From: Felixounavirus LF110P2
DNA length: 64,000 nt
Strand: one strand, 5' to 3'
Sequence record: OZ035782.1
Positions 27,185 to 42,515 of the stretch are shown here, piece after piece. Within the stretch, counting starts at the first letter, position 1; every line of letters starts with the position of its first letter. The notes below the pieces were generated by a model that was given only the letters and a program-made list of their open reading frames with translations, was not told the DNA's origin and ran no database searches. The translations under genes were made by a program, and so were the position numbers.

Positions 27185-27300
27185 GGCAGATTTTTTATAA
27201 GGCTACTGCCATCCTTCCATACATTACCTAACCAAGCCTAACATCACACAACCAGACCGAGCCGCACCCCGCCTTTTTAAAAGACCCTCTTAAAGACCTT

Positions 27301-27465
27301 TTAAAAAGGTAAGTCTCATTTTAATGTAGCTGAGACTAACTACCCACACCTTACCAAACCGTACCTGACCTTACCATGCCACACCTTACAACACCAAACA
27401 TTACTTAAAAACCTTCTTAGAAGACTCTTAAGTGATGCTGGTGAGTACCCGTTGGTTTATGCTGC
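27301..27465 (-). ncRNA. Candidate small non-coding RNA / structured leader (G+U-rich transcript)
   Basis: Defined only by a - strand promoter at 27468-27495 and a - strand terminator-like hairpin plus U-tract at 27301-27345; no ORF; + strand almost devoid of G. Confidence 0.15.
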
Positions 27466-27502: not shown

Positions 27503-28606
27503 TTATTCGTAGTCTCGAATAACTAACCCGACAGGGAACTGTAGAGACCCCTTACGAGTCATCTTCTGGAACTGAACCGTTAAAGGCTTCCCGATAAACT
27601 CTTCAGGATGCTCAGCAAGATACTGTTTCTTCTCATGAGTAGTCTTCCATGAGACATCTACAAAGACGTTAGGAAGAGTCTCTACAACGAACTTGCCATG
27701 ACCACGCTTATCAGTCTTTACACCAGTCACTTTAAACTCTTCAGTGTGCATCTTCTTGTGCTTAATCAAGAAATATGAACGGTGACCACACTCGTAGAAA
27801 GATTCTTCAGAGATTGAACGGTACATTGCACCTTCAAAATCAGCTTCAACCCATTTATCATGAGCTTCATCAAACTCTTCCCAAGAGTTAACACGACGAG
27901 ACTTGACAGGGACAACTCTACAGCCGTCTCTAAAGTCATTCAATGGTGAAGTCTCAATAATATCCCTACGCTCAGGCCACGTCTTAGTGCTGTCACAGAT
28001 ATCATACCAGTAAAACTTGAGTAAATGTCGGTCAGGATTGTCTTCATTTTTAATCATAGAGACAATATCTTCTAAGTCCAACCCATGAGCATAGATTTCA
28101 CCATCAAATTCATCAACATCTTTATGGAGCCTCAACATTGCCATAATGTCAGGTATTAGCTCAGTAGGAATTTTATAAATAGTGTTCTCACGAGAATATG
28201 CTGTAAATACGCTGCCAATACTTAAGTGTCTTGAAATTCTACAACGGACACCATCAAGTTTTGGTTGAGCATCAGCAGGGAACTTCAGATACTTTGCATG
28301 ACTAACCTTTGCAGCATCATGAGCAAGCTGCACACCTACCTTCTCAGTATTCTGTGCAGACTCTTTTGTGTAAGCATAGCCTTTGCGGTCAACCTGCTTT
28401 TTATACTTAGCAGCAACTTCAAAGAGAGCTTGCTGTTCAGCGTTACGCTCATTCTTTTTACCGATGTTTTTAGGTTCTGCTGTATACTCTTCAAACATCA
28501 TCTTGCCATTTTCTTTACCGTAGGTTGTAATAACTTTGTCACCTACAGCAACGCATGACCAGACGTTGAAAGAGCCGTCTTTATTTTGTTTGTACAGTAT
28601 TGTCAT
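27503..28606 (-). CDS. ATP-dependent DNA ligase
   Basis: Adenylation motif KLDGVRC (KxDGxR), then DGEIYAHG, EGAMYRS and FLIKHKK in the order of ligase motifs I, III, IV, V. Start set at ATG preceded by AGAGGA RBS. Confidence 0.6.
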   Translation of the reverse strand: MTILYKQNKDGSFNVWSCVAVGDKVITTYGKENGKMMFEEYTAEPKNIGKKNERNAEQQALFEVAAKYKKQVDRKGYAYTKESAQNTEKVGVQLAHDAAKVSHAKYLKFPADAQPKLDGVRCRISRHLSIGSVFTAYSRENTIYKIPTELIPDIMAMLRLHKDVDEFDGEIYAHGLDLEDIVSMIKNEDNPDRHLLKFYWYDICDSTKTWPERRDIIETSPLNDFRDGCRVVPVKSRRVNSWEEFDEAHDKWVEADFEGAMYRSISEESFYECGHRSYFLIKHKKMHTEEFKVTGVKTDKRGHGKFVVETLPNVFVDVSWKTTHEKKQYLAEHPEEFIGKPLTVQFQKMTRKGSLQFPVGLVIRDYE

Positions 28607-28607
28607 T

Positions 28608-28799
28608 TTATTCCTCTGAGTGATACCAAGTATTGCAAGCATTACATGCGTAAAGCTCTAAGTCATTTTTGTCTGGTTTATGGAAACAGTTTGCTCCGCA
28701 GTGGCAACGAAACGGCTTTCCACCAACTGTCAGAATGAAGGATTGAACCTTTCCATCAGGAGTCCGTACAGCATTTTTATGCTTGTCTTCTTTATTCAT
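28608..28799 (-). CDS. Small zinc-ribbon protein
   Basis: CHCGANC ... CNACN cysteine/histidine pairs; 63 aa. Confidence 0.3.
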   Translation of the reverse strand: MNKEDKHKNAVRTPDGKVQSFILTVGGKPFRCHCGANCFHKPDKNDLELYACNACNTWYHSEE

Positions 28800-29595: not shown

Positions 29596-29808
29596 TCAGA
29601 TGTCAATGCTAATACGTTCACCCTTAAGGACTCCTGTACGGTCCCTTGCAATCTTACCGTCAACAATAAGGATGTGTGCAGACCTTAAAGATTCGCCATT
29701 AAAAGCTTTTACGAACTTACAAGGCATTACCACAATAGACATCTCCTGAATCAACTCTGGAGTATAGCAATTGTCGTGAAGTTGCTGAATAACGTCTGCA
29801 AGTGTCAT
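29596..29808 (-). CDS. Small protein, paralogue of ORF 30011..30220
   Basis: MTLADVIQQL...DGKIARDRTGVLKGERISIDI versus MTLSEIEVQL...GGKIAKDKTRYLKGERVDIENLL. Confidence 0.35.
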   Translation of the reverse strand: MTLADVIQQLHDNCYTPELIQEMSIVVMPCKFVKAFNGESLRSAHILIVDGKIARDRTGVLKGERISIDI

Positions 29809-30014
29809 TTTTGATGTCTCCAATACTCAATGTCAATAAGTTCTTGTGCAATGCTTTTCAGATTACCTTTCAAGAAAACCTTCTCAGAACCTGAAAGAGA
29901 TGAATTGTCAATTAACCTGTTCATTCTCTCAAACAACTTCTGCTTACGGTTCTTGATAGTTTCCTTTGAAGCACCTTTCATCATCGCTGCATGGGTTCTT
30001 CCACGGTGACTCAT
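29805..30014 (-). CDS. Hypothetical small basic protein
   Basis: 69 aa ORF with 4-nt overlaps to both neighbours. Confidence 0.3.
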   Translation of the reverse strand: MSHRGRTHAAMMKGASKETIKNRKQKLFERMNRLIDNSSLSGSEKVFLKGNLKSIAQELIDIEYWRHQK

Positions 30015-30220
30015 AGCAAATTCTCGATGTCTACACGTTCACCTTTTAAGTACCTTGTCTTATCTTTTGCGATTTTCCCTCCAGCAATAAAGATATCTGC
30101 TATACGCAGAGCTTCAGGGTTTACTCTATAACCACTGCAAATAACAATAAGCATGTCTTCAATCTCTTTTTGAGAATAACCTGCACATTGCAACTGAACT
30201 TCAATCTCTGAAAGCGTCAT
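30011..30220 (-). CDS. Small protein, paralogue of ORF 29596..29808
   Basis: AGGAGGT RBS; shared N- and C-terminal sequence with the downstream paralogue. Confidence 0.35.
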   Translation of the reverse strand: MTLSEIEVQLQCAGYSQKEIEDMLIVICSGYRVNPEALRIADIFIAGGKIAKDKTRYLKGERVDIENLL

Positions 30221-30281
30221 GTGACCTCCTATACAAGATACAGTATAAGGTACTCTTCCATGAGCACCTTGTCAATACTAA

Positions 30282-32981
30282 TTAGTGAACCTCAAGCCAG
30301 CTTTTACCAACCTTACCAGTACCTGTAACAAGTGTTTCTTTCTTAAGACCTAAGTTCTTAGAAGCTTGTCCATAATACCAGTCAGTAACCGCTTTCACCT
30401 CTGCCGTCATGCTTTCTGGACATTCCCAACTCGTCTCATCGTGATATGCGCAGAGTAAACGAGCACCAATAGCTGGTTTGCGACCATTCAACTTCATCAA
30501 GCCTTCGTCAATCATACGACGACAAGCAAGGTTAATCGCCTCATTTTGAATCTGAGCCTCTGAACCCATCAAAAGATAGTTCAATAATTTGTGTGGAGAT
30601 TTACACCACAACCAAGCTCCAGCAACCTTTACAAAACCCCCTTTAGAGATTGCAGCAGTCTTACCAAACACCTCTTCAAGTGCCTTTTTAGTCGCTTTGT
30701 AGTCAGCTTCCAAGTCATCTAGCAGCTTCTTAATTTTAGGCAAACGAATAAAGTAAGTCTGTTTAGTCAGTGCACCTTCCTGAGTAGTTGCAGCCTTAAT
30801 TGTCTTAGCAAACTTCTCATCACCTGCACCGAACAGCAGTGCATAGATACCATTCTTAGCTTTCTTACGACCCTTACTAATCTCATGAAGAAGACTCTCA
30901 TCCTGAGTAGCTCGACAAGTCAAGATATCCTGCTCATCATTCAAGCTAAAGTAAATGCTGTTCAGTGTATGAGCATCAGTCCCTGAATAGACAACGTACA
31001 GGTCATTCTCAGAGTCATAGCGAAGGTACTTATCAATCTCTGGGTTGAGGTACTCATCAAAATGTTTGCAGTAATAGCGTCCATCCTCTTGACGAATAAA
31101 CTCAATCTCTTCTTTACCTTGCGTTACCGCTTTGGTGAAGTCTTTATCACCCATAAAGTTACAAAGAAGAACTAGCTGAGCTGAGTTCATATCTACAGAG
31201 ACAACGTTAGTACCTTCCTCACAAATCCACACTGCCCTCATTGGTTCCCCATAGACAGCAGCACCAGACGGTACGTTTACAATACCATATTGTGTCATAC
31301 GTCCAGTTGAAGTACCAAACACCATTGCACCAGCACTAAGGCGACCATCAGGACGAATCTGGTTCAACCAACCTTTTTCATCATCCTTTGAGTTCTCAAT
31401 AGTTCTGCGTCGGTGCATCAAAGTATAGTACTTAGCAATCTTCTGTCCAAGTTCACCTTCAATCGTATCATAAGATGACTCAGTAAGCTTTGGTGAAGTA
31501 CGGATTAAGCAAGGCTCAAGCAAATCTGTGTATTTTTTCACAGACCAGTTATGCTCAATGTACTGGACACCTTCATGTTCAACATAGTTCAAACCACACC
31601 GCTCAACCATTTCCTGCCACTTAGGATGTTTTGTAATCATCTTTTTATTGTCTTTGAAACGACAAACTTTAACAGGGCGACCATCTGAGTCTTTCTTGTA
31701 GTTCCAGTCATCTGGAATCCAACCAACTGATTTCAAGTAGTCTTTAACAACTGCTACCTGAGTCATACGAGAAACTTCAAACTCAATTGGTGTATACGGT
31801 GCATCAATCAAACCTGTGTAGCGACTTGACTCAAGTTCAAAGTGGTTAACAACATGACTGTTATAGTACTTCACAGTTTTAACTGTTTTTACTGGCTTCC
31901 AGTCTTTGCATTTCTTACCAATCTTTGCGTTCAACTCATTGCAAATTGCACGAGCATCCTTCATTGCTACAAAACCTTCTTTGTACTCTTCACCAGTTAC
32001 AGAGTTGGTTGGTGTATAGCAATTCCGCTTTTCAATGTTAAAAATCTTTGTAGTTGGCTTACCAAATGGCTTGATTTCATATGTCTGCATCTCACCGTTA
32101 CGTACCTGTTGACGATACTTTGTCTTAGGGTACTTGGTAATTCTCTTCAGTCCATCTGCATGACCAAATGCTTCAACATACTCATTCCAAGCTTTTGCAA
32201 ATTCTTCTCCAGTGACTTTACCTTTGGTCTTAATAGTTGGAGGAAGATGTGGTTCAACTTCTGAAGCAAGCTCATTAGTCAATTTGTCAAGTTCCTTTAC
32301 ATGGAACTCCATAAGCTCTTTATCAGCTTTCCAACCATTTATAGCCTGTTGACTCATCCAGAAAGATGTTTCTTTAGCTCGCATGTAGGTTTCATAAGTG
32401 TCTATGCCACACTTCTTCAGCTTGAGATATTCATTATCCAGTGCACGTTTAGTTTTGGCGTTAATACGGATATCTTCCACAACACGAGTGAAGATTTCTG
32501 CATTCCACACACCCCAATGTTCAATCTCTGGTTTACGTACACCAACACGCGCACCCCATGCAGCCAAGCCATGAGCACCTTTATAACCTTTTGGAGTTGG
32601 TCTATCCATCCACTGAACACGAGACTGGATAAGAGAATCCTGAAAGAAATTACTCCACGGCTTACACTTTGGATTATCAAAGTTCCATAAATCAGGTGCA
32701 ATGTGATTGAAAACCCACCAGTCATAACCGAGACCGTTATGGATGCAAAGACGTTTTGCCTTTAACGCAAACTCAATACCTTCGCGTAAGCCACCCTTAA
32801 TATACTTGGTATACTTGTGACCGAGTATAGGCTCATCTGTAAAGACCCATACAGGCGGCTCTTCATCGTCAGATTTATAGTCTGCGAAAGCCATTACGTG
32901 CACTTTAGTGAACTCAAGGAGTAAACCATCAGTTTCTGTATCACCAACTAAATGTAAGTTTTTAAAATCTACGTTTTCCAT
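30282..32981 (-). CDS. DNA polymerase, family A (Pol I-like) with 3'-5' exonuclease domain
   Basis: Exo I motif LVGDTETDGL near N-terminus; polymerase motif B-like RKKAKNGIYALLFGAG and motif C CAYHDE near C-terminus. Start set at MENVDFK preceded by GAGGGAG. Confidence 0.85.
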   Translation of the reverse strand: MENVDFKNLHLVGDTETDGLLLEFTKVHVMAFADYKSDDEEPPVWVFTDEPILGHKYTKYIKGGLREGIEFALKAKRLCIHNGLGYDWWVFNHIAPDLWNFDNPKCKPWSNFFQDSLIQSRVQWMDRPTPKGYKGAHGLAAWGARVGVRKPEIEHWGVWNAEIFTRVVEDIRINAKTKRALDNEYLKLKKCGIDTYETYMRAKETSFWMSQQAINGWKADKELMEFHVKELDKLTNELASEVEPHLPPTIKTKGKVTGEEFAKAWNEYVEAFGHADGLKRITKYPKTKYRQQVRNGEMQTYEIKPFGKPTTKIFNIEKRNCYTPTNSVTGEEYKEGFVAMKDARAICNELNAKIGKKCKDWKPVKTVKTVKYYNSHVVNHFELESSRYTGLIDAPYTPIEFEVSRMTQVAVVKDYLKSVGWIPDDWNYKKDSDGRPVKVCRFKDNKKMITKHPKWQEMVERCGLNYVEHEGVQYIEHNWSVKKYTDLLEPCLIRTSPKLTESSYDTIEGELGQKIAKYYTLMHRRRTIENSKDDEKGWLNQIRPDGRLSAGAMVFGTSTGRMTQYGIVNVPSGAAVYGEPMRAVWICEEGTNVVSVDMNSAQLVLLCNFMGDKDFTKAVTQGKEEIEFIRQEDGRYYCKHFDEYLNPEIDKYLRYDSENDLYVVYSGTDAHTLNSIYFSLNDEQDILTCRATQDESLLHEISKGRKKAKNGIYALLFGAGDEKFAKTIKAATTQEGALTKQTYFIRLPKIKKLLDDLEADYKATKKALEEVFGKTAAISKGGFVKVAGAWLWCKSPHKLLNYLLMGSEAQIQNEAINLACRRMIDEGLMKLNGRKPAIGARLLCAYHDETSWECPESMTAEVKAVTDWYYGQASKNLGLKKETLVTGTGKVGKSWLEVH

Positions 32982-33175
32982 TTTTACTCCCTCTAAAATC
33001 ATTAACCTCATACATTACTGCAAAAAATTATAAAAAGCAAGTTGACAATGCACTTGACAAGGTGTTAATCTTTGCGAAGTGGGTTTTTACTTAAAAGGTT
33101 ACTTAACAGCTTAACTATACAGATACTTTAAAACTCTTAAAAGATTATTTAATAGCTTTTAAAAAGCTTTAAAGT

Positions 33176-35489: not shown

Positions 35490-37467
35490 AGGTCGTAAAT
35501 TGAAAGAGGCTGGTCAGTTTGTTGGTCATTGCGCATGTCCACGTTGTGGTTCATCAGATGCTGGTTCAATCTATCATCATGACGATGATTCTTATTCAAT
35601 GACTTGCTTTAGTTGTAACAAAGGTTTCCCAGAGTGGGATTTTGATAAAGGACAAATTGTGAGCACTTATTCTACTGGTTCAGAAAATAAAAACCGTACT
35701 TTCCGTGGAATGGATTTAGACGATGTAAAAGAAAACCTAGAAGCAATGGACTTGAAAGATAGGAAGATTCCTGCAAAAGTCCTTGAACGCTTAGGTATCA
35801 AGGTTGACATTGACAGTGATGGTGAAATTGACGCGCATTTCTATCCAACTTACAAACGTAATGAAGATGGTAAGCTAGAGCACGTTGGCTACCGTGTTCG
35901 TCACCGTTACCCAGAAGACCATCCAAAAGAACACCTACGAGGTAAGTTAAAAGACTTTTCTGGTGGTGTTGGAGACATTAAAGGTGAACTGGCAATGTTC
36001 GGTTCATGGATTGCTCCAGAAGGTGGTAACCGTCTATTCATCTGGGAAGGTGAGATGGAATGTGCGACAGCAATCTATATGACTTCTCTTGCGATTAAGG
36101 ATAAATCTCGTCGTAAGAATTACTGTCACGTATCTGTTCCATCAGGTGCAAACATCAAGTCTATCAAAGATAACTATCAGTACATTACATCATTTGATGA
36201 GATTTACTTGTGCTTTGATAACGATGAAGCAGGTGCTAAAGCCACTAAAGATGCTGCTGGTATCCTACCTATTGAGAAGGTTCGTTTATTCCAGTATCCA
36301 GAAGGCGTAAAAGACCTTAACGAGTGGTGGACAAAGTTCTATAAAGAGAAAGACACAGTTCTGGAAGGATTTAAGCAGCGTATCTACAATGCACCTCGTT
36401 ACTGTCCTGCTGGTATCAAGAACTTTGCAGATGGTTTTGAGGCAATGAAGAATCGTGGTCAGATTCCATTGATTCCTTTCCCAGAATCTTTCGGAGATTT
36501 GAACAGGCTGACTTATGGTGGTTACGGTTTAGGTGAGATTACAACTATTGCAGCACCATCTTCAGTAGGTAAGTCAGCTTACACTCGTGAGATGATTTAT
36601 TCAGCTTGGAAAGAAACTGATTATAATATCGGTGTAATTCCTGTAGAAGATACCTATGAAGAGTTGATGGAGATGCTCTGTGCAATCCACCTGAGCAAGC
36701 AGATTTCTGAGATTCCTTATGACGAACGTGATTGGGATGAATTGAAGAAGGCACACGCAGAACTGTCTAAAGGTCGTCGTATCCACATCGTTGACCATCA
36801 AGGGGCAATTGACCAAGATAACTTGCTGGAGTTTGTTGACTATCTTGTTAACAGCTTAGACTGTAAGATTATTATTCTTGACCCTATTACGTTGGCTCTG
36901 TCACGTTCAGATACGGATGAAGAGGAAGTTTTATCTGAGCTATTGCGTCGTTGCAAACGCTACCAGTATGCACAGGTGAACGTCTGTCACGTTCGTAAGA
37001 GTGCAGGTGGTCAGAAGGCTAACTCTGAAGGTGGAGATATCTCTGAAGAGGATATTAAAGGTTCTGGTGCGTATTTCCAGATTTCTATGAACAACATTCT
37101 GTTAATGCGTAACAAGGTTGACCCAGACCCTGTTAAGAAAAACTTGACAAAAATCAAGTTAACTAAGTGTCGTCGTCATGGTAAGTCAACAGGTATTGCT
37201 GGTCATACTTGGTACAATCCAGATACAGGACGTCTTATCAAAGCTTCTGGATGTGGTGTTGATATTGATGGTGCAGCAGAAAATATTCGCCAGCAGTTTG
37301 GTATTGGTGAAGCTGAAGACCATTACGATGACTCTTTGCCACATTATGAGGACGAAGTGTTTGACCGTGAGACTGGTGAAGTCTATACTGAAGAGCAGCG
37401 TCAAAGCTCAACGATTCCACCTGTATTAAGTGAGGATGCAGATGACTGCCCGTTCGAAACTGAGTGA
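35482..37467 (+). CDS. DNA primase-helicase (T7 gp4-like)
   Basis: N-terminal zinc ribbon CACPRCGS...CFSCNKG; central primase-like region; C-terminal DnaB-family helicase with Walker A APSSVGKSAYT. ATG at 35482 preceded by AAGAGGTG. Confidence 0.8.
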   Translation: MSKGRKLKEAGQFVGHCACPRCGSSDAGSIYHHDDDSYSMTCFSCNKGFPEWDFDKGQIVSTYSTGSENKNRTFRGMDLDDVKENLEAMDLKDRKIPAKVLERLGIKVDIDSDGEIDAHFYPTYKRNEDGKLEHVGYRVRHRYPEDHPKEHLRGKLKDFSGGVGDIKGELAMFGSWIAPEGGNRLFIWEGEMECATAIYMTSLAIKDKSRRKNYCHVSVPSGANIKSIKDNYQYITSFDEIYLCFDNDEAGAKATKDAAGILPIEKVRLFQYPEGVKDLNEWWTKFYKEKDTVLEGFKQRIYNAPRYCPAGIKNFADGFEAMKNRGQIPLIPFPESFGDLNRLTYGGYGLGEITTIAAPSSVGKSAYTREMIYSAWKETDYNIGVIPVEDTYEELMEMLCAIHLSKQISEIPYDERDWDELKKAHAELSKGRRIHIVDHQGAIDQDNLLEFVDYLVNSLDCKIIILDPITLALSRSDTDEEEVLSELLRRCKRYQYAQVNVCHVRKSAGGQKANSEGGDISEEDIKGSGAYFQISMNNILLMRNKVDPDPVKKNLTKIKLTKCRRHGKSTGIAGHTWYNPDTGRLIKASGCGVDIDGAAENIRQQFGIGEAEDHYDDSLPHYEDEVFDRETGEVYTEEQRQSSTIPPVLSEDADDCPFETE

Positions 37468-37537
37468 TAGTTATAAAAGAGAGGGGTTCACACCATTCTT
37501 TGAAGAAAAAAGTTTAAATAAATTTCAGGAAGAGTGT

Positions 37538-37566
37538 TTGACAAAGATTGATAGGTTCTATAGAAT
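37538..37566 (+). promoter_or_regulatory. Sigma70-like promoter (TTGACA-N17-TAGAAT)
   Basis: Exact -35 TTGACA, 17-nt spacer, -10 TAGAAT. Confidence 0.45.
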
Positions 37567-37718
37567 GCTCCACATGAAATGCGATGGAGAAGTTGAAATA
37601 GAACAACAGTTCCATCAAAGTATGATTACAGTCATCATTACACTGCCTCAGCATAATATTGGTTGGCTGTTTATAATGAAAGAAAATGTGTTTGAATATC
37701 AAGTATATCGGAGAATAT

Positions 37719-37868
37719 CATGAAACACTCTAAAGCATTTGAAAAAGTTTTTGGGGATTCCTTAAAAGCCACTGCTGGAAAACCAGCAAAATACTATGAA
37801 GAAAAACGTGTAAGAACTGGAAAAACTGCACGTAAAGCAGCTTCTAAAGATAAGCACAACTTCCAGTA
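37719..37868 (+). CDS. Small basic ORF (49 aa), not in supplied track
   Basis: ATG preceded by GGAGAATATC; translates MKHSKAFEKVFGDSLKATAGKPAKYYEEKRVRTGKTARKAASKDKHNFQ. Confidence 0.2.
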
Positions 37869-37876
37869 ATTAGTAT

Positions 37877-37905
37877 TTGACAATAGAGTATCAACAAATT
37901 AGAAT
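37877..37905 (+). promoter_or_regulatory. Sigma70-like promoter (TTGACA-N17-TAGAAT) upstream of SSB-like gene
   Basis: Same -35/-10 hexamers and spacing as the promoter at 37538. Confidence 0.45.
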
Positions 37906-37941
37906 TGGTACTCTTCATAAATTGAGATAGAGGTTTAAATA

Positions 37942-38799
37942 ATGTCTAAAGTTGTTAAAATGAAAGCTCCGGTAGAGAAGTACAACGGTACTGAACGTCA
38001 AACTCTGCGTTACCTGCTGAAAGATGTCTGGTTTTATTACCTGAACACTTCACCACGTCCGGGAAAAGGTAAATCTATTGACAAGAAATTCCCAGGAAAA
38101 GATTGTAACTACAGCGTATCAATTCTGGCAGAAGACGGTAACAAACTCTTTAAAGAGTTTACTAAGTCTAAGAAGAACCCAGAAGGTTGGGATAAAGTTA
38201 CTACTGAAGCAGTTGATGCAGATGACTTCGAAGAGAAGTTTGGCTGCAAACCACCATTTGAAGCAGACACTTACTACATCTTGAAAGTAAGTCGTGCAGC
38301 AGCTTATAAAGATGGTGCTGTATGGACAGCTAAACAGTCATTCCCTGTAATGCTGATTGAAGAAGTGAATGGTAAGCGTGTAGCTGTTAAGCAGCCGATG
38401 AAGAAAATTAAAGCTCAAGCATCTGATAAACACGAAGATGACAAGAACTATGATGTAATTCATCCAGATATTGCAGTTGGTAACGGTTCTTTTGGTAGTG
38501 TGATTCTCTCTACTCACTTCTACACTTTTGAGAACAATGTTCTGACAAAACCTATTCAGGAACAGTTTATCATTGATACCCTTGTACCTTACACTGGTGG
38601 TAACGGTGCTAATGGTGAACCTGAACTGGATGAAGATGAACTGGCTATGCTTGGTCTTGATGGTGTCGAAGATAACGGTGAAATCACTGAAGAAGACGCA
38701 ACAGACCATAAATCTTCGAATGATTCTGATGATGGTGATGATGAAGATTTGCCAGACCCAGATGACGAAGAAGATGAAGACTTCGATACAGAAGATTAA
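37942..38799 (+). CDS. Single-stranded DNA-binding protein (acidic C-terminal tail)
   Basis: 285 aa with long D/E-rich C-terminal tail ending ...DEEDEDFDTED, the architecture of T7 gp2.5 / T4 gp32-type SSBs; sits next to primase-helicase. Confidence 0.45.
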   Translation: MSKVVKMKAPVEKYNGTERQTLRYLLKDVWFYYLNTSPRPGKGKSIDKKFPGKDCNYSVSILAEDGNKLFKEFTKSKKNPEGWDKVTTEAVDADDFEEKFGCKPPFEADTYYILKVSRAAAYKDGAVWTAKQSFPVMLIEEVNGKRVAVKQPMKKIKAQASDKHEDDKNYDVIHPDIAVGNGSFGSVILSTHFYTFENNVLTKPIQEQFIIDTLVPYTGGNGANGEPELDEDELAMLGLDGVEDNGEITEEDATDHKSSNDSDDGDDEDLPDPDDEEDEDFDTED

Positions 38800-38816
38800 T
38801 CTCTAAAGTTACTTTA

Positions 38817-38844
38817 AAGCCCTGTACTCCGTATGGGGCTTTTT
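38817..38844 (+). terminator. Intrinsic terminator (weak)
   Basis: AGCCC ... GGGCT hairpin followed by TTTTT. Confidence 0.35.
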
Positions 38845-38860
38845 CATATGGAGAGCCATA

Positions 38861-39907
38861 ATGGAGAAGTACACATTAACAAAACTTCCCGATTCAGTTA
38901 CACATGTCTTTATTGACTCTGACAGTATTGCCTATAAAGGTGCTTGTGTAGTTGAGAAAGCAAAATATAAATACGTCAATAAACTCACAGCAGAAGAATC
39001 TGAACCATTTGACAATGCGAAAGATGCTGCAAGATGGTTAGCAGACCAGAGAATCCTTGTGGAAGAACTTGGCCTGACATTTGATGAAGATGAATGGGAA
39101 AGACAGACTTGGAAAGAAGCTAAGAGTGAAAAAGAAGCTATCATGGCTACTCAACAGGTGCTTCAGGAATGGCTTAAGGTTGTTGGTAAAGAAAGAACTT
39201 GGGTAGGTTATTTAACAGAGAAAGGTGTGCATAAACATAAAGACATTAAAGGTCTTGAGCACCAATATCAAGGTAACCGTAAAGATGCTGTCACACCAAC
39301 ACACTTAGTTGCTTGTCGTGAATACCTTTTATCCAGACCAGAGTTCAAGCTCTTAAAGGGGGGCTTCGAAGCCGATTCAATCGTAATTGCTAAAGCTGAA
39401 AAGATGGGTAAGAAGGCTGCTCTTATGAGTATTGATAAAGACCTTCGACAAGCTGAAGGAACTTATTGTATTGATATGACTTATGAAAAATCACCACTAA
39501 TCTTTATTGCTGATAATAATGTTGGTGATATCTGGGATTGTCCTATCAAATCAAAACCAAAAGCTGCAAAAACAGTTGGTGTAGGTTTTAAGTTCTTGTG
39601 CTATCAGGCTGTTGCTGGAGATAATGCAGACAACTACTTCGGACTTAAAGGTGCTGGTAAAGTAGCTGTGATGAATGCTTTAGATGGTAAAGAGACCTAC
39701 AAAGAGTGTCTTGATGCTATCTATGAACTCTATGCTAAAAAAGACTCTTATACCTATGTGTCATGGGATGGACAGACTGTTACAAAGACACCGTTAGAGT
39801 TAATGGAACAGCATTTCTTCCTAGCTTATCAAGAGCGAAATAAATCAGATATTTTTTCATTTGAAAAGTATGGTTGGACTCCAAATGTTGACTCAGCAGA
39901 TACTTAA
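38861..39907 (+). CDS. 5'-3' exonuclease / flap endonuclease (RNase H-like)
   Basis: N-terminal acidic cluster FIDSDSIAY and H3TH-like motif AGDNADNYFGLKGAGKVAV match FEN/T4 RNase H family organisation. Confidence 0.5.
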   Translation: MEKYTLTKLPDSVTHVFIDSDSIAYKGACVVEKAKYKYVNKLTAEESEPFDNAKDAARWLADQRILVEELGLTFDEDEWERQTWKEAKSEKEAIMATQQVLQEWLKVVGKERTWVGYLTEKGVHKHKDIKGLEHQYQGNRKDAVTPTHLVACREYLLSRPEFKLLKGGFEADSIVIAKAEKMGKKAALMSIDKDLRQAEGTYCIDMTYEKSPLIFIADNNVGDIWDCPIKSKPKAAKTVGVGFKFLCYQAVAGDNADNYFGLKGAGKVAVMNALDGKETYKECLDAIYELYAKKDSYTYVSWDGQTVTKTPLELMEQHFFLAYQERNKSDIFSFEKYGWTPNVDSADT

Positions 39908-40385
39908 AGAATATCTACACTATGACCCCGAAACAGGGGTCTTTACGTGGATAAAGAAATCAGCTAACAGAACAGTTATAGGTTCCATTGCAGGTACACC
40001 ACATAAGCGAGGTTATATTAGGATAAAAATTAAAAGAAAACCCTATATGGCTCATGATTTAGCAATCCTGTACACAGACGGTTTCCTACCTAACAGAGTA
40101 GACCATCGAAACGGTATTACTAATGATAATCGGAGATTAAATCTAAGGGTTTGCACACAAGCTGAAAACTCTTGGAATAGAAGAACACACTCCAACAACA
40201 CATCTGGAGTTAAGGGTGTATCTTTCTATAAGGCTAACCAAAAATGGAAGGCCAGAGTTATGACACACGGAGTATCTCACTTTCTGGGGTATTTTGACAG
40301 TATTGAAGATGCCAAAGATGCAGTCACAAAGAAAAGAGAAGAACTACATAAAGATTTTTCAAATCACGGAGAAGCTTATGAATGA
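39870..40385 (+). CDS. HNH homing endonuclease with AP2-type DNA-binding domain
   Basis: HNH core VDHRNGITNDNRRLNLRVCTQAEN followed by AP2-like SGVKGVSFYKANQKWKARV...GYFDSIEDA; start overlaps the exonuclease gene. Confidence 0.6.
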   Translation: MVGLQMLTQQILKEYLHYDPETGVFTWIKKSANRTVIGSIAGTPHKRGYIRIKIKRKPYMAHDLAILYTDGFLPNRVDHRNGITNDNRRLNLRVCTQAENSWNRRTHSNNTSGVKGVSFYKANQKWKARVMTHGVSHFLGYFDSIEDAKDAVTKKREELHKDFSNHGEAYE

Positions 40386-40879
40386 AGATTAAAGGATTTG
40401 GCAATTGCCCCACCTACGGTCATTGGGTATCTTTATGTGGGGAAGTTGACCCCACTAAACATTTTGGCTTTGTCTATTTAGTACACTGTAAGAAGACTGG
40501 ACAATATTATATAGGAAAGAAACAGCTTAACAGTGTGACCAAAAGAAAAGTTGCTGGGAAGACTCGGAAGAAGGTAGTCACTAAGGAAAGTGATTGGATG
40601 ACTTACGAAACCTCTTCTGAGTATATTAAAAAAGATATTGAGAGCTTTGGAAAAGAATTTTTTGACTTTTACATTATTCAGACCTACTACACAAAAGGTG
40701 GCCTAGTCTATGGTGAAGCAAACCTTCAACATAAATTCGATGTAATGACAAAAAGGATTGACTCTAAGCTCAGACTCTTCTACAATGCCAATATTGCAGC
40801 AATTAAGTTTATCACTAAAGAAACTTATGAAGATGCTGAAAAAAGAATCCATAAGGTAATGAAAGCAAATTGTGCTTGA
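40382..40879 (+). CDS. GIY-YIG-like nuclease (putative second homing endonuclease)
   Basis: FVYLVHCKKTGQYYIGKK matches GIY-(10)-YIG spacing; downstream catalytic residues not confidently placed. Confidence 0.3.
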   Translation: MKIKGFGNCPTYGHWVSLCGEVDPTKHFGFVYLVHCKKTGQYYIGKKQLNSVTKRKVAGKTRKKVVTKESDWMTYETSSEYIKKDIESFGKEFFDFYIIQTYYTKGGLVYGEANLQHKFDVMTKRIDSKLRLFYNANIAAIKFITKETYEDAEKRIHKVMKANCA

Positions 40880-40885
40880 TAACTA

Positions 40886-41149
40886 TTGAGAGAGAATAAA
40901 ATGTTTAACAAAAGCAAAGCTGTGAGTCATGTAGCAAAAGTTGACAGCAAGATTGAAGAACTTGAGCGCATCCTTGCAAATGCCAGAGAGTCAATAATCA
41001 AAGAAGTTGAAGCTGTTGAATCTCAAATGCAGCACCTAATGCTTAAACGTCAAGAGCTACGTGAGCATCTAGAATATATTGAAACACGAGAGCTAAAAGT
41101 TAACAGATATTTTAAGGAGTCCGAATGTTTAACTCAAGAGAATCAGTAA
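40886..41149 (+). CDS. Hypothetical coiled-coil protein
   Basis: 87 aa helical ORF. Confidence 0.25.
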   Translation: MRENKMFNKSKAVSHVAKVDSKIEELERILANARESIIKEVEAVESQMQHLMLKRQELREHLEYIETRELKVNRYFKESECLTQENQ

Positions 41150-41880
41150 AAAACTGGAACCTTCGTTGTGGAAACACTCAAAAGCAACCTTACAGTGATG
41201 AGTATTGGGAATCTTTAAAATCTCAATCTCTGTGTATGCTTGAAGAAGCAAAAGAGCTTGTAAAAGCAATTGAAGAGAAAGACCCCATTGAGACACTGGA
41301 TGCTCAGGCAGATTTGCAATATGTTCTTGACGGTTTGATTTACCTGTCACAACATGACCATAACGGTGCTATGAAAGCTGTTTGCCGTAATAATGACCTG
41401 AAGTACACAGATGACTATGAAGAAGCTTTAAAACGTCTTGCAGACATTGAAAAGCGTACTGGTCAAGAGTGTATTATCAGAATGTCAGTAGTTGATGGTA
41501 AAGAGTGGTATGCGATTGTTCGTACAGCCGATGGGAAGATTATGAAGCAATCAAATCTCCCTAAAGTACAGCTTGGTGAATACATTGTAGAGCTTGAAAG
41601 CCAAGAACTTTTTGTGGTAGTATCTGAGACATGCGTTATCTGCAAAGGTATTGTAGGTAGCTTAAAGGATTTGGGTGTAGATGGTTTTGTAGAAGTTAAT
41701 CCAATTACCTCTAAAGCAGATAAAGACTTCTGTAAAGAGAACGGACTATGGATTGCAGATATTGTCTACTATGATGGTGAGCAGTTCCATGTAACCTCAT
41801 ACCCGAAACTGAATTATGATGCTAATAACCTGAAGTGCTGGTTAAAAGGGGTTGGTTATAATGGATTCACAGAACATTAA
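41125..41880 (+). CDS. Hypothetical protein with possible MazG-like NTP pyrophosphohydrolase N-terminal domain
   Basis: LEEAKELVKAIEEK...LDAQADLQYVLDGL resembles the EExxE...D MazG-type helical motif; weak. Confidence 0.25.
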   Translation: MFNSRESVKNWNLRCGNTQKQPYSDEYWESLKSQSLCMLEEAKELVKAIEEKDPIETLDAQADLQYVLDGLIYLSQHDHNGAMKAVCRNNDLKYTDDYEEALKRLADIEKRTGQECIIRMSVVDGKEWYAIVRTADGKIMKQSNLPKVQLGEYIVELESQELFVVVSETCVICKGIVGSLKDLGVDGFVEVNPITSKADKDFCKENGLWIADIVYYDGEQFHVTSYPKLNYDANNLKCWLKGVGYNGFTEH

Positions 41881-42184
41881 TAAAGAGGGTGTGGCTCAAA
41901 AGAGCCACTTCTCAAACTACAATATTTCTATGACGGTGTTTATGAATGACCCGTTACTAGAAAAATATGGTGAGACTCCAGATACACTTCTGGACAATGA
42001 ACAAGTTTTAAAAGCAGTCCTATACAAATACGGGATTGATATTGAGAAAGAATATTCCTTTGAAATCTGCCAACACAGGAATACTTTCGGTAAAGTTGTG
42101 ATGGCTCCACTCTTTATGGGTGTAGAAAGGACTGACTATGGTTGGTTGTATCTAAAAAGAAACTTGGAGAAATACCGTGTCTAA
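41852..42184 (+). CDS. Hypothetical protein
   Basis: 110 aa ORF. Confidence 0.25.
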   Translation: MVIMDSQNINKEGVAQKSHFSNYNISMTVFMNDPLLEKYGETPDTLLDNEQVLKAVLYKYGIDIEKEYSFEICQHRNTFGKVVMAPLFMGVERTDYGWLYLKRNLEKYRV

Positions 42185-42515
42185 AGCAAAAAAGCTATCT
42201 TATGATGATATTGTCTCAGGTGCTAAGTTAGGCGTTGACAGCCTCGGACAAGATGTTAAGCACGGGGACATAGTTATGTACTGTGATGACCGAAGAGGTA
42301 GAAGTGCAATCTTGTTTGGAAGAATTGTTTGCAAGATGCGAGGCAATTACGTTGTTGCAGACATGGATGTGAACGTTACACAAAAACTTGAAACACTTAT
42401 GGATGATAATACATCATCATGGTTCTCCCTGAATTGTATGCACACTTCTTCAGTCACAAAAGTAAGTGATAAGTTTTACGATATGTGGCAGAATGAGCAA
42501 ATTTTCAAGATTTAA
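42177..42515 (+). CDS. Hypothetical protein
   Basis: 112 aa ORF followed by terminator. Confidence 0.25.
   Translation: MSKAKKLSYDDIVSGAKLGVDSLGQDVKHGDIVMYCDDRRGRSAILFGRIVCKMRGNYVVADMDVNVTQKLETLMDDNTSSWFSLNCMHTSSVTKVSDKFYDMWQNEQIFKI

What the first reader, a model, noticed from the sequence alone, without database searches (positions are those of the whole stretch)
38861..40879. Two different homing-endonuclease-like genes in tandem after the exonuclease gene
An HNH-AP2 endonuclease (39870-40385) is followed immediately by a GIY-YIG-like ORF (40382-40879) with overlapping stop/start, both inserted after the FEN/RNase H-like gene. Tandem selfish endonucleases of different families suggest sequential invasion of an insertion hotspot.
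Basis: partly seen in the sequence, partly recalled or inferred. Interest (0 to 1): 0.4.

Follow-up and report, generated by a model that had tools for sequence, protein, structure and literature searches.

The report
Mobile HNH endonuclease beside core nuclease
In this Felix O1-like phage, a selfish HNH-AP2 homing-endonuclease gene sits exactly between the exonuclease gene and a small GIY-YIG nuclease gene, but only the HNH gene is mobile; the GIY-YIG gene is a fixed, strongly conserved core gene of the whole phage subfamily, so the locus is an ordinary though very clean example of phage mosaicism.

Summary
The window is Felixounavirus LF110P2. The three ORFs are real and the domain calls hold. 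The exonuclease is a 5'-3' exonuclease/FEN. The middle ORF is HNH plus AP2 (Pfam; AlphaFold model matches I-HmuI and plant AP2 domains). The third ORF has a GIY-YIG fold (PF19835; best structural match is the I-TevI catalytic domain).

Only the HNH gene behaves as a selfish element.
- It is a 491-nt insert (39878-40368) present in about 35% of related phages.
- It occurs as three deep lineages (52-58% aa identity) at the identical site.
- A metagenomic phage is identical to the window over 2.4 kb on the left and, bar two mismatches, 1.9 kb on the right. It lacks the insert and carries a different version of the last 59 nt of the exonuclease gene.
- One HNH lineage is 97.6% identical between two phages whose flanking genes are only 76-82% identical.

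The GIY-YIG ORF is not a recent invader. It is single-copy and syntenic in essentially every Ounavirinae genome. It overlaps the exonuclease stop codon wherever HNH is absent. It is under very strong purifying selection (dN/dS 0.01-0.05). It lacks any DNA-binding domain. In unrelated uncultured phages it again sits next to an exonuclease gene.

The parts
38861..39907 (+). 5'-3' exonuclease / FEN-like gene (348 aa). This is the host gene whose 3' end carries the insertion site.
   Evidence: ORF. phrog_107 exonuclease 5e-62. Weak Pfam/NCBIfam 5'-3' exonuclease and Pol I N-terminal matches. Annotated as exodeoxyribonuclease in relatives.
39819..39877 (+). HNH-linked version of the last 59 nt of the exonuclease gene before the insertion point. 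I read it as a co-conversion tract. It differs at 19 of 59 positions from the HNH-free isogenic allele.
   Evidence: The window and L021 show 0 mismatches over 37391-39818, then 19/59 mismatches. The exonuclease C-terminus reads ...FFLAYQERNKSDIFSFEKYGW versus ...FWIAYQERNPKDNFSFKKYNW.
39878..40368 (+). The 491-nt HNH insert, lying between TGG and GAG of the naive junction AATTGG|GAGCCGTGTATGAATGAAGATTAAAGG.
   Evidence: Length difference and junctions are. vB_SflM_004 (L010) has naive-type sequence right up to both ends of the insert. Coordinates were read.
39885..40385 (+). HNH-AP2 free-standing homing endonuclease gene (166 aa from the conserved ATG; upstream in-frame starts at 39861 and 39870). 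Its first 23 nt overlap the exonuclease 3' end.
   Evidence: dN/dS is 0.06-0.30 within and between lineages.
39924..39941 (+). Perfect hairpin GACCCC-gaaaca-GGGGTC inside the HNH 5' coding region (encoding DPETGV). It is built from rare codons and is nucleotide-invariant in all HNH lineages and in two distant paralogues.
   Evidence: Codon usage: CCC 3% of Pro, GGG 7% of Gly, GTC 11% of Val.
40098..40178 (+). HNH catalytic motif (V72 D73 H74 ... N82 ... N86 L87 R88 ... N95 ... N98).
   Evidence: Invariant in lineages A, B and C. H74, R88 and N98 are invariant in 45 homologues. Aligns to the I-HmuI motif.
40197..40349 (+). AP2-type DNA-binding domain (residues ~105-155; three strands plus a helix).
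40368..40371 (+). GGAG Shine-Dalgarno sequence for the GIY-YIG gene, 10 nt before its ATG. It is supplied by the 3' end of the HNH cassette and mimics the GGGAG at the same spacing in the naive allele.
   Evidence: Read directly from the sequence. Its function is inferred.
40382..40879 (+). Domain-only SegE-type GIY-YIG nuclease gene (165 aa). It is a core gene of Ounavirinae and is mislabelled 'NAD synthetase' by PHROG 447.
40442..40795 (+). GIY-YIG catalytic domain (residues 21-138). Invariant residues are Y32 (GIY), Y43-x-G45 (YIG), E112 and N135. A basic beta-hairpin insert spans residues 50-69 and contains R62.
   Evidence: Pfam envelope. Invariant columns. hhalign to I-TevI aligns Y32 with Y6, Y43 with Y17 and R62 roughly with R27. 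Secondary structure.

Best explanation
The locus is a free-standing HNH-AP2 homing endonuclease gene (HEG) inserted at the junction between two resident phage genes. These are the 5'-3' exonuclease gene and a conserved small GIY-YIG nuclease gene.

Shown by comparison:
- The ancestral state in Ounavirinae is exonuclease followed by GIY-YIG, with overlapping stop and start codons.
- In about a third of Felixounavirus/Mooglevirus genomes a 491-nt cassette (window 39878-40368) sits between TGG and GAG of the junction TGG|GAGCC..TATGAATGAAGATTAAAGG, which is invariant across three genera.
- The cassette replaces the last seven exonuclease codons (EPCMNED becomes TPNVDSADT).
- It places the HNH start inside the exonuclease 3' end.
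- It ends with its own GGAG-N10-ATG, so the GIY-YIG gene keeps a ribosome-binding site and an ATGA stop/start overlap.

Inferred mechanism: during mixed infection the HNH-AP2 protein binds, through its AP2 domain, and nicks or cuts the intact junction of an HNH-free co-infecting genome. Recombinational repair from the HNH-carrying genome then copies in the cassette plus a variable stretch of flanking DNA. Here that stretch is 59 nt upstream and at most about 43 nt downstream. The occupied allele is immune because the insert splits the site.

The GIY-YIG ORF is not part of the mobile element. It is a vertically inherited, catalytically intact, domain-only nuclease. Most likely it works with the neighbouring exonuclease in phage DNA metabolism, for example by nicking or cutting host or branched DNA that the exonuclease then degrades. 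That functional role is inference only.
For: (1) Presence/absence polymorphism.
- A 1.3-kb query across the locus covers at least 80% in only 48 of 297 records. Most records match over about 807 nt, with about 494 nt missing.
- Lineage-specific searches give 27 (A/A2) + 43 (C, including Felix O1) + 21 (B) records carrying the HNH. That compares with 257 records holding the exonuclease at >=60% aa identity.
- In IMG/VR, 12 of 28 complete loci carry the HNH.

(2) Near-isogenic pair. L021 is identical to the window over 37391-39818 (0 mismatches in 2428 nt). It has 2 mismatches over 40412-42270. It differs only in 39819-40411.

(3) Horizontal transfer. Between Moogle and vB_SflM_004 the HNH is 97.6% nt identical (dS 0.02). 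The flanking genes are far more diverged: exonuclease 81.8% (dS 1.28), GIY-YIG 78.8% (dS 2.5), MazG 76.1%. The recipient has naive-type flanks up to both insert ends.

(4) Local divergence peaks around the site while distal genes are near-identical. For window versus VSe11, dS is 0.65 for the exonuclease, 0.61 for GIY-YIG and 0.04 for MazG. HNH-free alleles L024 and L026 retain HNH-type upstream tracts.

(5) The HNH gene looks functional. The catalytic motif is invariant and dN/dS is 0.06-0.30. The fold matches I-HmuI plus AP2.

(6) The GIY-YIG ORF behaves as a core gene.
- It has one copy per record (767 places in 764 records). It is >=80% identical in 252 records, 60-80% in 44 further Ounavirinae, and present in 28 of 28 IMG/VR loci.
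- It is syntenic and overlaps the exonuclease in Suspvirus, Mooglevirus, Kolesnikvirus and Pectobacterium phage Wc4-1.
- Its dN/dS is 0.014-0.053, lower than the exonuclease (0.03-0.16) and MazG (0.10-0.17).
- Catalytic Y32, Y43, E112 and N135 are invariant in 45 diverse homologues.

(7) Recurrent pairing with an exonuclease gene. In 32 of 50 uncultured-phage loci the order is FEN, then domain-only GIY-YIG (overlapping), followed by a primase-helicase gene in the 27 loci where one was found. In six or seven others the order is primase, GIY-YIG, PD-(D/E)XK exonuclease.
Against: - No cleavage activity, target site or homing frequency has been measured for this or any Felixounavirus HNH.
- The direction of the window/L021 difference (gain or loss) cannot be read from two sequences.
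- Record counts include RefSeq/GenBank duplicates and closely related isolates.
- One HNH pair has dN/dS above 1 (Moogle versus vB_SflM_004). This rests on very few substitutions and on an altered C-terminus.
- Copies with single-base frameshifts exist: the HNH in Si3 and the GIY-YIG in EC6. These could be sequencing errors or decay.
- The catalytic Arg of the GIY-YIG domain is only tentatively placed at R62. That column is basic (R or K) but not invariant.
- An ancient, now fixed homing origin of the GIY-YIG gene cannot be excluded. The same Pfam domain does occur in true multi-domain homing endonucleases, such as the RB16 359-aa protein between nrdC and nrdD.
- HEGs also cluster near replication genes, so adjacency to exonuclease genes is not proof of a shared function.
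Confidence: 0.85

Rival explanations
1. Both ORFs are selfish homing endonuclease genes of different families that invaded the same hotspot one after the other. The GIY-YIG gene is simply the older invader and has since gone to fixation.
For: - The ORF belongs to PF19835, the SegE-type GIY-YIG domain.
- The same domain heads genuine multi-domain homing endonucleases: the RB16 359-aa protein between nrdC and nrdD and the NUMOD3-bearing P0070.
- HEGs of different classes are often found adjacent in phages (PMC10448857).
- GenBank annotators call it 'GIY-YIG homing endonuclease'.
Against: - There is no presence/absence polymorphism across about 296 Ounavirinae records or 28/28 IMG/VR loci.
- Its divergence is congruent with its neighbours.
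- Its dN/dS of 0.01-0.05 is the strongest constraint in the locus. A fixed HEG with no empty targets left would be expected to decay.
- It has no DNA-binding or NUMOD domain.
- The overlap with the exonuclease is conserved across four genera.
- The exonuclease/GIY-YIG pairing recurs in unrelated phages.
Confidence: 0.08
2. The HNH gene is an ancestral resident that is simply being lost by deletion in many lineages. On this view the polymorphism reflects decay, not active homing.
For: - All three HNH lineages share identical boundaries and near-identical 5' and 3' ends. This fits one ancient insertion.
- HNH-free alleles L024 and L026 carry HNH-type upstream tracts that look like footprints of loss.
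- The direction of the window/L021 difference is unknown.
Against: - All outgroup genera and species (Suspvirus, Kolesnikvirus, Wc4-1 and Mooglevirus mordin) have the uninterrupted exonuclease/GIY-YIG overlap.
- HNH-free junctions are identical to the base across three genera, which independent deletions would not produce.
- The A2 allele is 97.6% identical between phages whose flanks are about 80% identical, and it sits in naive-type flanks. That requires lateral acquisition.
- The gene is under purifying selection.
Confidence: 0.05
3. The two nucleases form one functional unit, for example an HNH nickase plus a GIY-YIG nickase that together make the double-strand break, and they move or act together.
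For: - They are adjacent, co-oriented and share a stop/start overlap.
- I-HmuI-type HNH enzymes are nickases (established knowledge of PDB 1U3E).
- Trans-acting help between phage endonucleases is known, as with mobE and I-TevIII (PMC2790892, listed).
Against: - The GIY-YIG gene exists without the HNH gene in about 65% of genomes and in all outgroups.
- The HNH moved between genera alone, leaving the recipient's own GIY-YIG allele in place.
- HNH paralogues at a second site, downstream of the DNA polymerase gene, have no GIY-YIG partner.
Confidence: 0.02

Closest known systems
I-HmuI and the HNH-AP2 family of phage homing endonucleases (Pfam HNH_3 + AP2; 'IPA-HNH' relatives in ICP1)
   Same: - Same two-domain architecture: an N-terminal HNH nuclease followed by a C-terminal AP2 DNA-binding domain.
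- The catalytic DH...N...N motif is conserved.
- The HNH+AP2 combination is described as a HEG family in phages, cyanobacteria and protists (PMC10448857).
   Different: - I-HmuI is intron-encoded in a DNA polymerase gene and uses other DNA-binding modules.
- This gene is free-standing, is not in an intron, and its target and cleavage chemistry are untested.
Phage T4 mobE and the seg genes (free-standing HEGs inserted between conserved genes, e.g. mobE between nrdA and nrdB)
   Same: - A free-standing endonuclease gene lodged between two conserved DNA-metabolism genes.
- Sporadic distribution among close relatives.
- Co-conversion of flanking markers and local peaks of divergence.
- The general model is as in PMC2790892 (listed).
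   Different: - Here the insert lies inside a stop/start overlap. It therefore has to re-create the C-terminus of the upstream gene and the ribosome-binding site of the downstream gene.
- Three deep allelic lineages share one site.
- There are no experimental data.
The six HNH endonuclease genes reported in phage Felix O1 (Whichard et al. 2010, PMC3185647)
   Same: Felix O1 itself carries the lineage-C allele at this very site, 100% identical to the VSe11 allele. The gene in the window is therefore an allele of one of those six already-noted genes.
   Different: - That paper listed the genes without showing mobility, insertion boundaries or allelic lineages.
- It did not mention the GIY-YIG ORF.
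Phage T4 SegE (founder of Pfam PF19835) and other Seg-type GIY-YIG homing endonucleases
   Same: - The 165-aa protein matches PF19835 over residues 21-138 (E 9e-28).
- It has the GIY-YIG fold closest to I-TevI.
- The catalytic Tyr, Tyr, Glu and Asn are present.
   Different: - No C-terminal DNA-binding region or NUMOD motif.
- No sporadic distribution and no sign of mobility.
- It belongs to a large set of single-domain members of 130-180 aa. More than 7,000 proteins match the profile.
Phage T4 endonuclease II (DenA), a 136-aa domain-only GIY-YIG nuclease that starts host DNA breakdown
   Same: - A small stand-alone GIY-YIG nuclease without a separate DNA-binding domain, encoded by a lytic phage among nucleotide-metabolism genes.
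- EndoII biology is described in PMC2764454.
   Different: - A different sequence family: there is no sequence-level match.
- The match is a weaker structural neighbour than I-TevI.
- A role in host DNA degradation is only a hypothesis here.

Membership tests
Free-standing HNH homing endonuclease gene | HNH (beta-beta-alpha-metal) nuclease domain with the catalytic His and Asn residues intact | tested here: met
Free-standing HNH homing endonuclease gene | Separate sequence-specific DNA-binding module (here AP2) | tested here: met
Free-standing HNH homing endonuclease gene | Sporadic presence among otherwise near-identical genomes, with a precise empty site | tested here: met
   About 91 of 257 records carry it, and 12 of 28 IMG/VR loci. 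L021 is an isogenic empty allele. The empty junction is identical in 20 loci from 3 genera.
Free-standing HNH homing endonuclease gene | Gene history incongruent with its flanks (lateral movement) and co-conversion of flanking DNA | tested here: met
   HNH is 97.6% nt identical where the flanks are 76-82% identical (Moogle versus vB_SflM_004). A 59-nt linked upstream tract and divergence peaks centre on the site.
Free-standing HNH homing endonuclease gene | Site-specific cleavage of the cognate endonuclease-free allele and super-Mendelian inheritance | not testable with these tools
   This needs protein biochemistry and phage crosses. No published assay for felixounavirus HNH genes was found.
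GIY-YIG nuclease superfamily | GIY-YIG alpha/beta fold | tested here: met
GIY-YIG nuclease superfamily | Catalytic residues: Tyr of GIY, Tyr of YIG, Arg, Glu, Asn | tested here: inconclusive
   Y32, Y43, E112 and N135 are invariant in 45 diverse homologues. hhalign puts Y32 on I-TevI Y6 and Y43 on Y17. The Arg is only tentatively R62, in a basic but not invariant column. E112 aligning with E75 and N135 with N90 rests on spacing, not on superposition.
GIY-YIG (Seg-type) homing endonuclease | C-terminal DNA-binding region (NUMOD, helix-turn-helix or zinc finger) conferring site specificity | tested here: not met
   PF19835 is the only domain and spans 21-138 of 165 aa. 43 of 45 family members scanned are single-domain, and one has NUMOD3. 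Nearly all of the more than 7,000 profile hits listed are 130-180 aa.
GIY-YIG (Seg-type) homing endonuclease | Sporadic distribution or mobility among related genomes | tested here: not met
   One copy in essentially every Ounavirinae record and in 28/28 IMG/VR loci. Synteny is conserved in four genera. Divergence is congruent with the flanks, and dN/dS is 0.014-0.053.
T4 EndoII-like host-DNA-degrading nuclease | Stand-alone GIY-YIG nuclease of a lytic phage acting non-site-specifically on host DNA | not testable with these tools
NAD synthetase (label of PHROG 447 and of many GenBank records) | NAD synthase / amidotransferase domain | tested here: not met
   No such Pfam or NCBIfam match. PF19835 is the only hit, and the fold is GIY-YIG. 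The label is a propagated misannotation.

The most novel reading that the evidence does not exclude
Two things are not excluded by the evidence.

(a) The 165-aa protein may represent a very large, uncharacterised class of domain-only SegE-type GIY-YIG nucleases (more than 7,000 proteins). On this reading they are housekeeping partners of phage exonucleases rather than homing endonucleases. They are fixed in Ounavirinae, and one copy per record is found in several hundred T4-like cyanophage records. They are repeatedly encoded next to a FEN or PD-(D/E)XK exonuclease gene. Their role could be a T7 gp3/gp6-like or T4 EndoII-like endonuclease-plus-exonuclease pair for host-DNA scavenging or for removing DNA branches.

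(b) The rare-codon hairpin GACCCCgaaacaGGGGTC is nucleotide-identical in five HNH-AP2 lineages that share only 33-58% protein identity. It may be a dedicated cis-regulatory or recombination element of this HEG family.
Probability: 0.4. Interest if true: 0.5.

Novelty: new member of a known kind. Interest (0 to 1): 0.3.

Why it matters
For the finding as posed, it matters little. HNH homing endonuclease genes are already known to litter Felix O1-like genomes, and this is an allele of one of them.

Three things have practical value.
- The locus is an unusually clean natural experiment. It offers an isogenic plus/minus pair, a transfer between genera with base-precise junctions, and three allelic lineages at one site. 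It could be used directly to measure homing and co-conversion in a therapeutic-phage genus. It also explains why whole-genome phylogenies of these phages break down around the exonuclease gene.
- Hundreds of database records label the neighbouring gene 'NAD synthetase' or 'GIY-YIG homing endonuclease'. Both labels are probably wrong. It is a core, domain-only GIY-YIG nuclease whose recurrent pairing with exonuclease genes gives a testable functional hypothesis.
- The insert shows how a selfish gene can sit inside a translational-coupling overlap. It does so by bringing its own copy of the upstream gene's tail and of the downstream gene's ribosome-binding site.

Tried and rejected
- **First homologue search for the GIY-YIG ORF.** It returned only 13 proteins. 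A profile seeded with translated metagenomic relatives was needed to reach the family.
- **The MAFFT multiple alignment of the locus.** It misplaced the gap for HNH-free alleles. Junctions were re-derived from exact prefix/suffix comparison.
- **An own promoter or terminator for the HNH cassette.** The consensus scan found nothing beyond chance inside 39700-40500. The only strong sigma-70-like sites are upstream, at 37538 and 37877.
- **The hairpin as an intrinsic terminator.** Rejected: there is no T-run after it.
- **The hairpin as a sequestered ribosome-binding site.** Rejected: it lies 39-56 nt downstream of the start codon. A weaker predicted stem does enclose the ATG, but support is modest (z = -3.1).
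- **HNH paralogues elsewhere in the window.** None was found, even at E <= 1.
- **A defence-system identity.** PADLOC gave only 'homing endonuclease' for the HNH ORF and nothing for the GIY-YIG ORF.
- **The 'NAD synthetase' label.** Rejected.
- **A packaging-type HNH (terminase-associated).** Considered and rejected on position, on the AP2 domain and on sporadic distribution.
- **The N-terminal C9/H14/C19 of the GIY-YIG protein as a zinc knuckle.** Rejected: only W15 is invariant in that region.
Full report
**Identity of the window and check of the observation**

The window is Felixounavirus LF110P2 (OZ035766.1), 100% identical at the same coordinates. It belongs to the Felix O1-like myoviruses, subfamily Ounavirinae.

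- The exonuclease gene is 38861-39907.
- The middle ORF is open from 39861, has ATGs at 39870 and 39885, and stops at 40385.
- The third ORF is 40382-40879. Its ATG overlaps the previous stop as ATGA.

Profile searches support the domain calls.
- HNH_3 scores above Pfam's threshold, AP2 below it, and SegE_GIY-YIG (PF19835) reaches 97 bits.
- PHROG families name the first two ORFs 'HNH endonuclease' and 'exonuclease'. The third is named, oddly, 'NAD synthetase'.

There is one correction. The start conserved in all alleles is the ATG at 39885, because the ATG at 39870 is absent in vB_SflM_004.

**The ancestral arrangement**

In every Ounavirinae genome without the HNH gene, the GIY-YIG ORF follows the exonuclease gene directly and overlaps its stop codon. 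The overlap is 11 nt in Felixounavirus finno and momo, Suspvirus SUSP1 and Mooglevirus mordin. It is 8 nt in Kolesnikvirus phiEa21-4 and Pectobacterium phage Wc4-1. In all of them the pair is followed by a small ORF and a MazG-like gene. The exonuclease/GIY-YIG pair is therefore ancestral for the subfamily, and the HNH gene is the derived insertion.

**The HNH gene is mobile**

Four independent lines of evidence agree.

First, occupancy is partial.
- Most relatives match a 1.3-kb query across the locus with about 494 nt missing.
- Lineage-specific searches find the HNH core in 27 (A/A2), 43 (C, including Felix O1 itself) and 21 (B) records.
- For comparison, 257 records hold the exonuclease at >=60% aa identity. 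Occupancy is therefore about 35%.
- In IMG/VR, 12 of 28 complete loci are occupied.

Second, there is a near-isogenic pair. The metagenomic contig IMGVR_UViG_3300045988_009833 (L021) has no mismatch with the window over 37391-39818 (2428 nt). It has two mismatches over 40412-42270. The genomes differ only between 39819 and 40411. That interval holds 19 substitutions in the last 59 nt of the exonuclease gene before the insertion point, the 491-nt insert, and one SNP.

Third, there is lateral transfer. The A2 allele is 97.6% identical (dS 0.02) between Citrobacter phage Moogle and Shigella phage vB_SflM_004. Their exonuclease, GIY-YIG and MazG genes are only 82%, 79% and 76% identical (dS 1.1-2.5). 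In vB_SflM_004 the flanks are of the naive type right up to both ends of the insert. This fixes the insertion between TGG and GAG, equivalent to window 39877|39878 and 40368|40369.

Fourth, divergence peaks locally. Carriers of different alleles are 71-89% identical across several hundred nucleotides of the exonuclease gene, and sometimes across the GIY-YIG 5' end. They are 96-100% identical further out. The breakpoints vary between phages. For example, HY02 has a window-like exonuclease gene with a lineage-B HNH. Two HNH-free alleles (L024, L026) retain HNH-type upstream sequence, as expected after loss or partial conversion.

A single metagenome (3300045988) contains empty, A, A2, B and C alleles, so these phages co-circulate.

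**Anatomy of the insert**

The empty site TGGGAGCC...TATGAATGAAGATTAAAGG is invariant in 20 HNH-free loci from three genera. It is presumably conserved because it encodes the exonuclease tail, the ribosome-binding site and the first codons of the GIY-YIG gene all at once. A conserved site of this kind is the sort of target that homing endonucleases favour.

The cassette has three effects on its neighbours.
- It changes the exonuclease C-terminus from ...NWEPCMNED to ...GWTPNVDSADT.
- It starts the HNH ORF 23 nt before the new exonuclease stop codon.
- It ends with CACGGAGAAGCTTATGAATGA. This reproduces the GGAG-N10-ATG geometry of the naive GGGAGCCGTGTATGAATGA.

The downstream core gene therefore keeps its translation signals. 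That this preserves its expression is inference.

The three HNH lineages are 52-58% identical in protein. They share the same boundaries, the same first ~22 residues and a similar last ~25 residues. All keep the VDH...DN...NLR...N...N motif and the AP2 core, and they evolve under purifying selection (dN/dS 0.06-0.30). Identical boundaries favour one old invasion followed by diversification and allele replacement over three independent invasions. I cannot prove this.

**Mechanism**

By analogy with I-HmuI, mobE and the seg genes, the most likely mechanism runs as follows. The protein binds the intact junction of a co-infecting HNH-free genome through its AP2 domain and nicks or cuts nearby. Recombinational repair then copies in the cassette with a variable length of flank. 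The occupied allele is immune because the site is split.

The polymorphism, the boundaries, the transfer and the conversion tracts are shown. Cleavage, target and immunity are inferred.

**The GIY-YIG ORF is not a mobile element**

Several observations point the same way.
- tblastn finds one copy per record (767 places in 764 records). It is >=80% identical in 252 records and 60-80% in 44 further Ounavirinae. That compares with 257 records carrying the exonuclease.
- All 28 IMG/VR loci have it.
- Its synonymous divergence matches or exceeds that of its neighbours.
- Its dN/dS of 0.014-0.053 is the lowest in the locus.
- It consists of the catalytic domain only (residues 21-138 of 165), with a basic beta-hairpin insert at residues 50-69.
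- Y32, Y43, E112 and N135 are invariant across 45 diverse homologues. They align to I-TevI Y6 and Y17 and, by spacing, to E75 and N90. The Arg is tentatively R62 (the I-TevI sequence was verified against 1MK0).

A profile search finds more than 7,000 relatives. Almost all are single-domain proteins of 130-180 aa. A minority carry DNA-binding modules and look like true homing endonucleases: P0070 with NUMOD3, and the RB16 359-aa protein between nrdC and nrdD.

The genomic context of distant relatives is informative.
- In 32 of 50 loci from uncultured phages (GIY-YIG 39-46% identical to the window's), the gene overlaps the end of a 237-241-aa 5'-3' exonuclease gene, and in the 27 loci where one was found a primase-helicase gene follows.
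- In six or seven loci it lies between a primase gene and a PD-(D/E)XK exonuclease gene.
- In two it lies near a T4 RNase H-like gene.
- Several hundred cyanomyovirus records carry one copy each, for example next to the nrdA/B region in S-RIM2.

I therefore read it as a housekeeping nuclease linked to the exonuclease. It may be an endonuclease/exonuclease pair analogous to T7 gp3/gp6 or to T4 EndoII with its exonucleases. That role is hypothesis, at roughly 40% confidence.

The 'NAD synthetase' label has no support.

**What is known, and novelty**

- Whichard et al. listed six HNH endonuclease genes in Felix O1 without analysing mobility (PMC3185647). Felix O1 carries the lineage-C allele at this site.
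- HNH+AP2 is a recognised HEG family.
- Adjacent HEGs of different classes and HEG-driven mosaicism are described for other phages (PMC10448857; PMC8594841).

The HNH element is thus a new, well-resolved member of a known kind. The re-reading of the GIY-YIG neighbour as a core gene, and the conserved hairpin, are modest additions.

**Side observations**

The 23-nt sequence TATGACCCCGAAACAGGGGTCTT contains a perfect 6-bp stem and is built from codons that are rare in this phage (CCC 3% of Pro, GGG 7% of Gly, GTC 11% of Val). It is exact in all lineages at this site. It is also exact at the 5' end of two other HNH-AP2 paralogues (33-41% identical in protein).

Those paralogues occupy a second site directly downstream of the DNA polymerase gene in relatives. 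The window has a small duplicated ORF there instead. Notably, the contig that is HNH-free at the exonuclease site (L021) is occupied at the polymerase site (L096).

**Verdict**

The element is ordinary in kind, and interest is low to moderate.

Noticed in passing
window 39921-39943 (hairpin stem 39924-39929 / 36-41); also L096, L099, L102, L104, L105, L108, L113: The 23-nt motif TATGACCCCGAAACAGGGGTCTT is a perfect GC hairpin made of rare codons (CCC 3% of Pro, GGG 7% of Gly). It is nucleotide-identical in HNH lineages A, A2, B and C. It is also identical at the 5' end of two other HNH-AP2 paralogues that are only 33-41% identical in protein. This suggests selection at the RNA or DNA level, or repeated gene conversion. 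Its function is unknown.
   Followed up: partly
window 30011-30286 (downstream of the DNA polymerase gene 30282-33011, minus strand): This is a second homing site. Relatives carry an HNH-AP2 paralogue here whose start overlaps the polymerase stop codon. Type X is in L102, L096, L099 and L104; type Y is in L105, L108 and L113. The window instead has a 69-aa phrog_4230 ORF (30011-30220), a paralogue of 29596-29823. The contig that lacks the HNH at the exonuclease site (L021) is occupied at this site (L096).
   Followed up: partly
L044-L075, L078-L090 (uncultured-phage loci): Distant domain-only PF19835 genes sit in a conserved order with replication genes. In 32 of 50 loci the order is FEN (237-241 aa), then GIY-YIG with overlap, followed in 27 of them by a primase-helicase gene. 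In six or seven loci it is primase, GIY-YIG, PD-(D/E)XK exonuclease. This is a recurrent nuclease pair in replication modules.
   Followed up: partly
window 40382-40879 and many GenBank/RefSeq records: PHROG 447 and many phage records call this protein 'NAD synthetase'. No NAD synthase domain is detectable, and the fold is GIY-YIG. This is a propagated misannotation that also affects hundreds of cyanophage records.
   Followed up: yes
L008 (Pectobacterium phage Wc4-1) about 2470-2500, versus window 39871-39887: The Wc4-1 exonuclease gene ends ...TATGGATGGACACCAAATGAGTAA, with the GIY-YIG start codon inside CCAAATG. The left end of the HNH insert is ACWCCAAATG, with the HNH start at the same ATG. 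Either the HNH-linked exonuclease tail (WTPN) is an old variant, or the cassette took over a pre-existing coupled start. This is unexplained.
   Followed up: no
L003/L043 (phage EC6) GIY-YIG ORF; L031 (phage Si3) HNH ORF: There are single-base frameshifts in homopolymer runs. An extra A splits the EC6 GIY-YIG ORF in two. A missing C in the hairpin C-run disrupts the Si3 HNH 5' end. These could be sequencing errors or early decay.
   Followed up: no
L102 4337-5774, versus window about 27270-27370 (next to the ATP-dependent DNA ligase gene 27503-28642): A relative carries about 1.4 kb that is absent from the window, with two ORFs of unknown function (phrog_5926, phrog_4652). This is another presence/absence polymorphism in the replication region.
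   Followed up: no
window 37942-38799: A 285-aa protein of unknown function (phrog_3877) has a long acidic C-terminal tail. It is encoded between the T7-like primase-helicase gene and the exonuclease gene. Its position and tail recall T7 gp2.5-type single-stranded-DNA-binding proteins. This was not tested.
   Followed up: no
window 37538-37566 and 37877-37905: Two near-consensus sigma-70-type promoters (TTGACA-17-TAGAAT, 11 of 12 matches) lie upstream of the 285-aa gene. They are the only strong promoter-like sites near the locus. The exonuclease, HNH and GIY-YIG genes may therefore be read from them or from phage-specific promoters that the scan does not cover.
   Followed up: no
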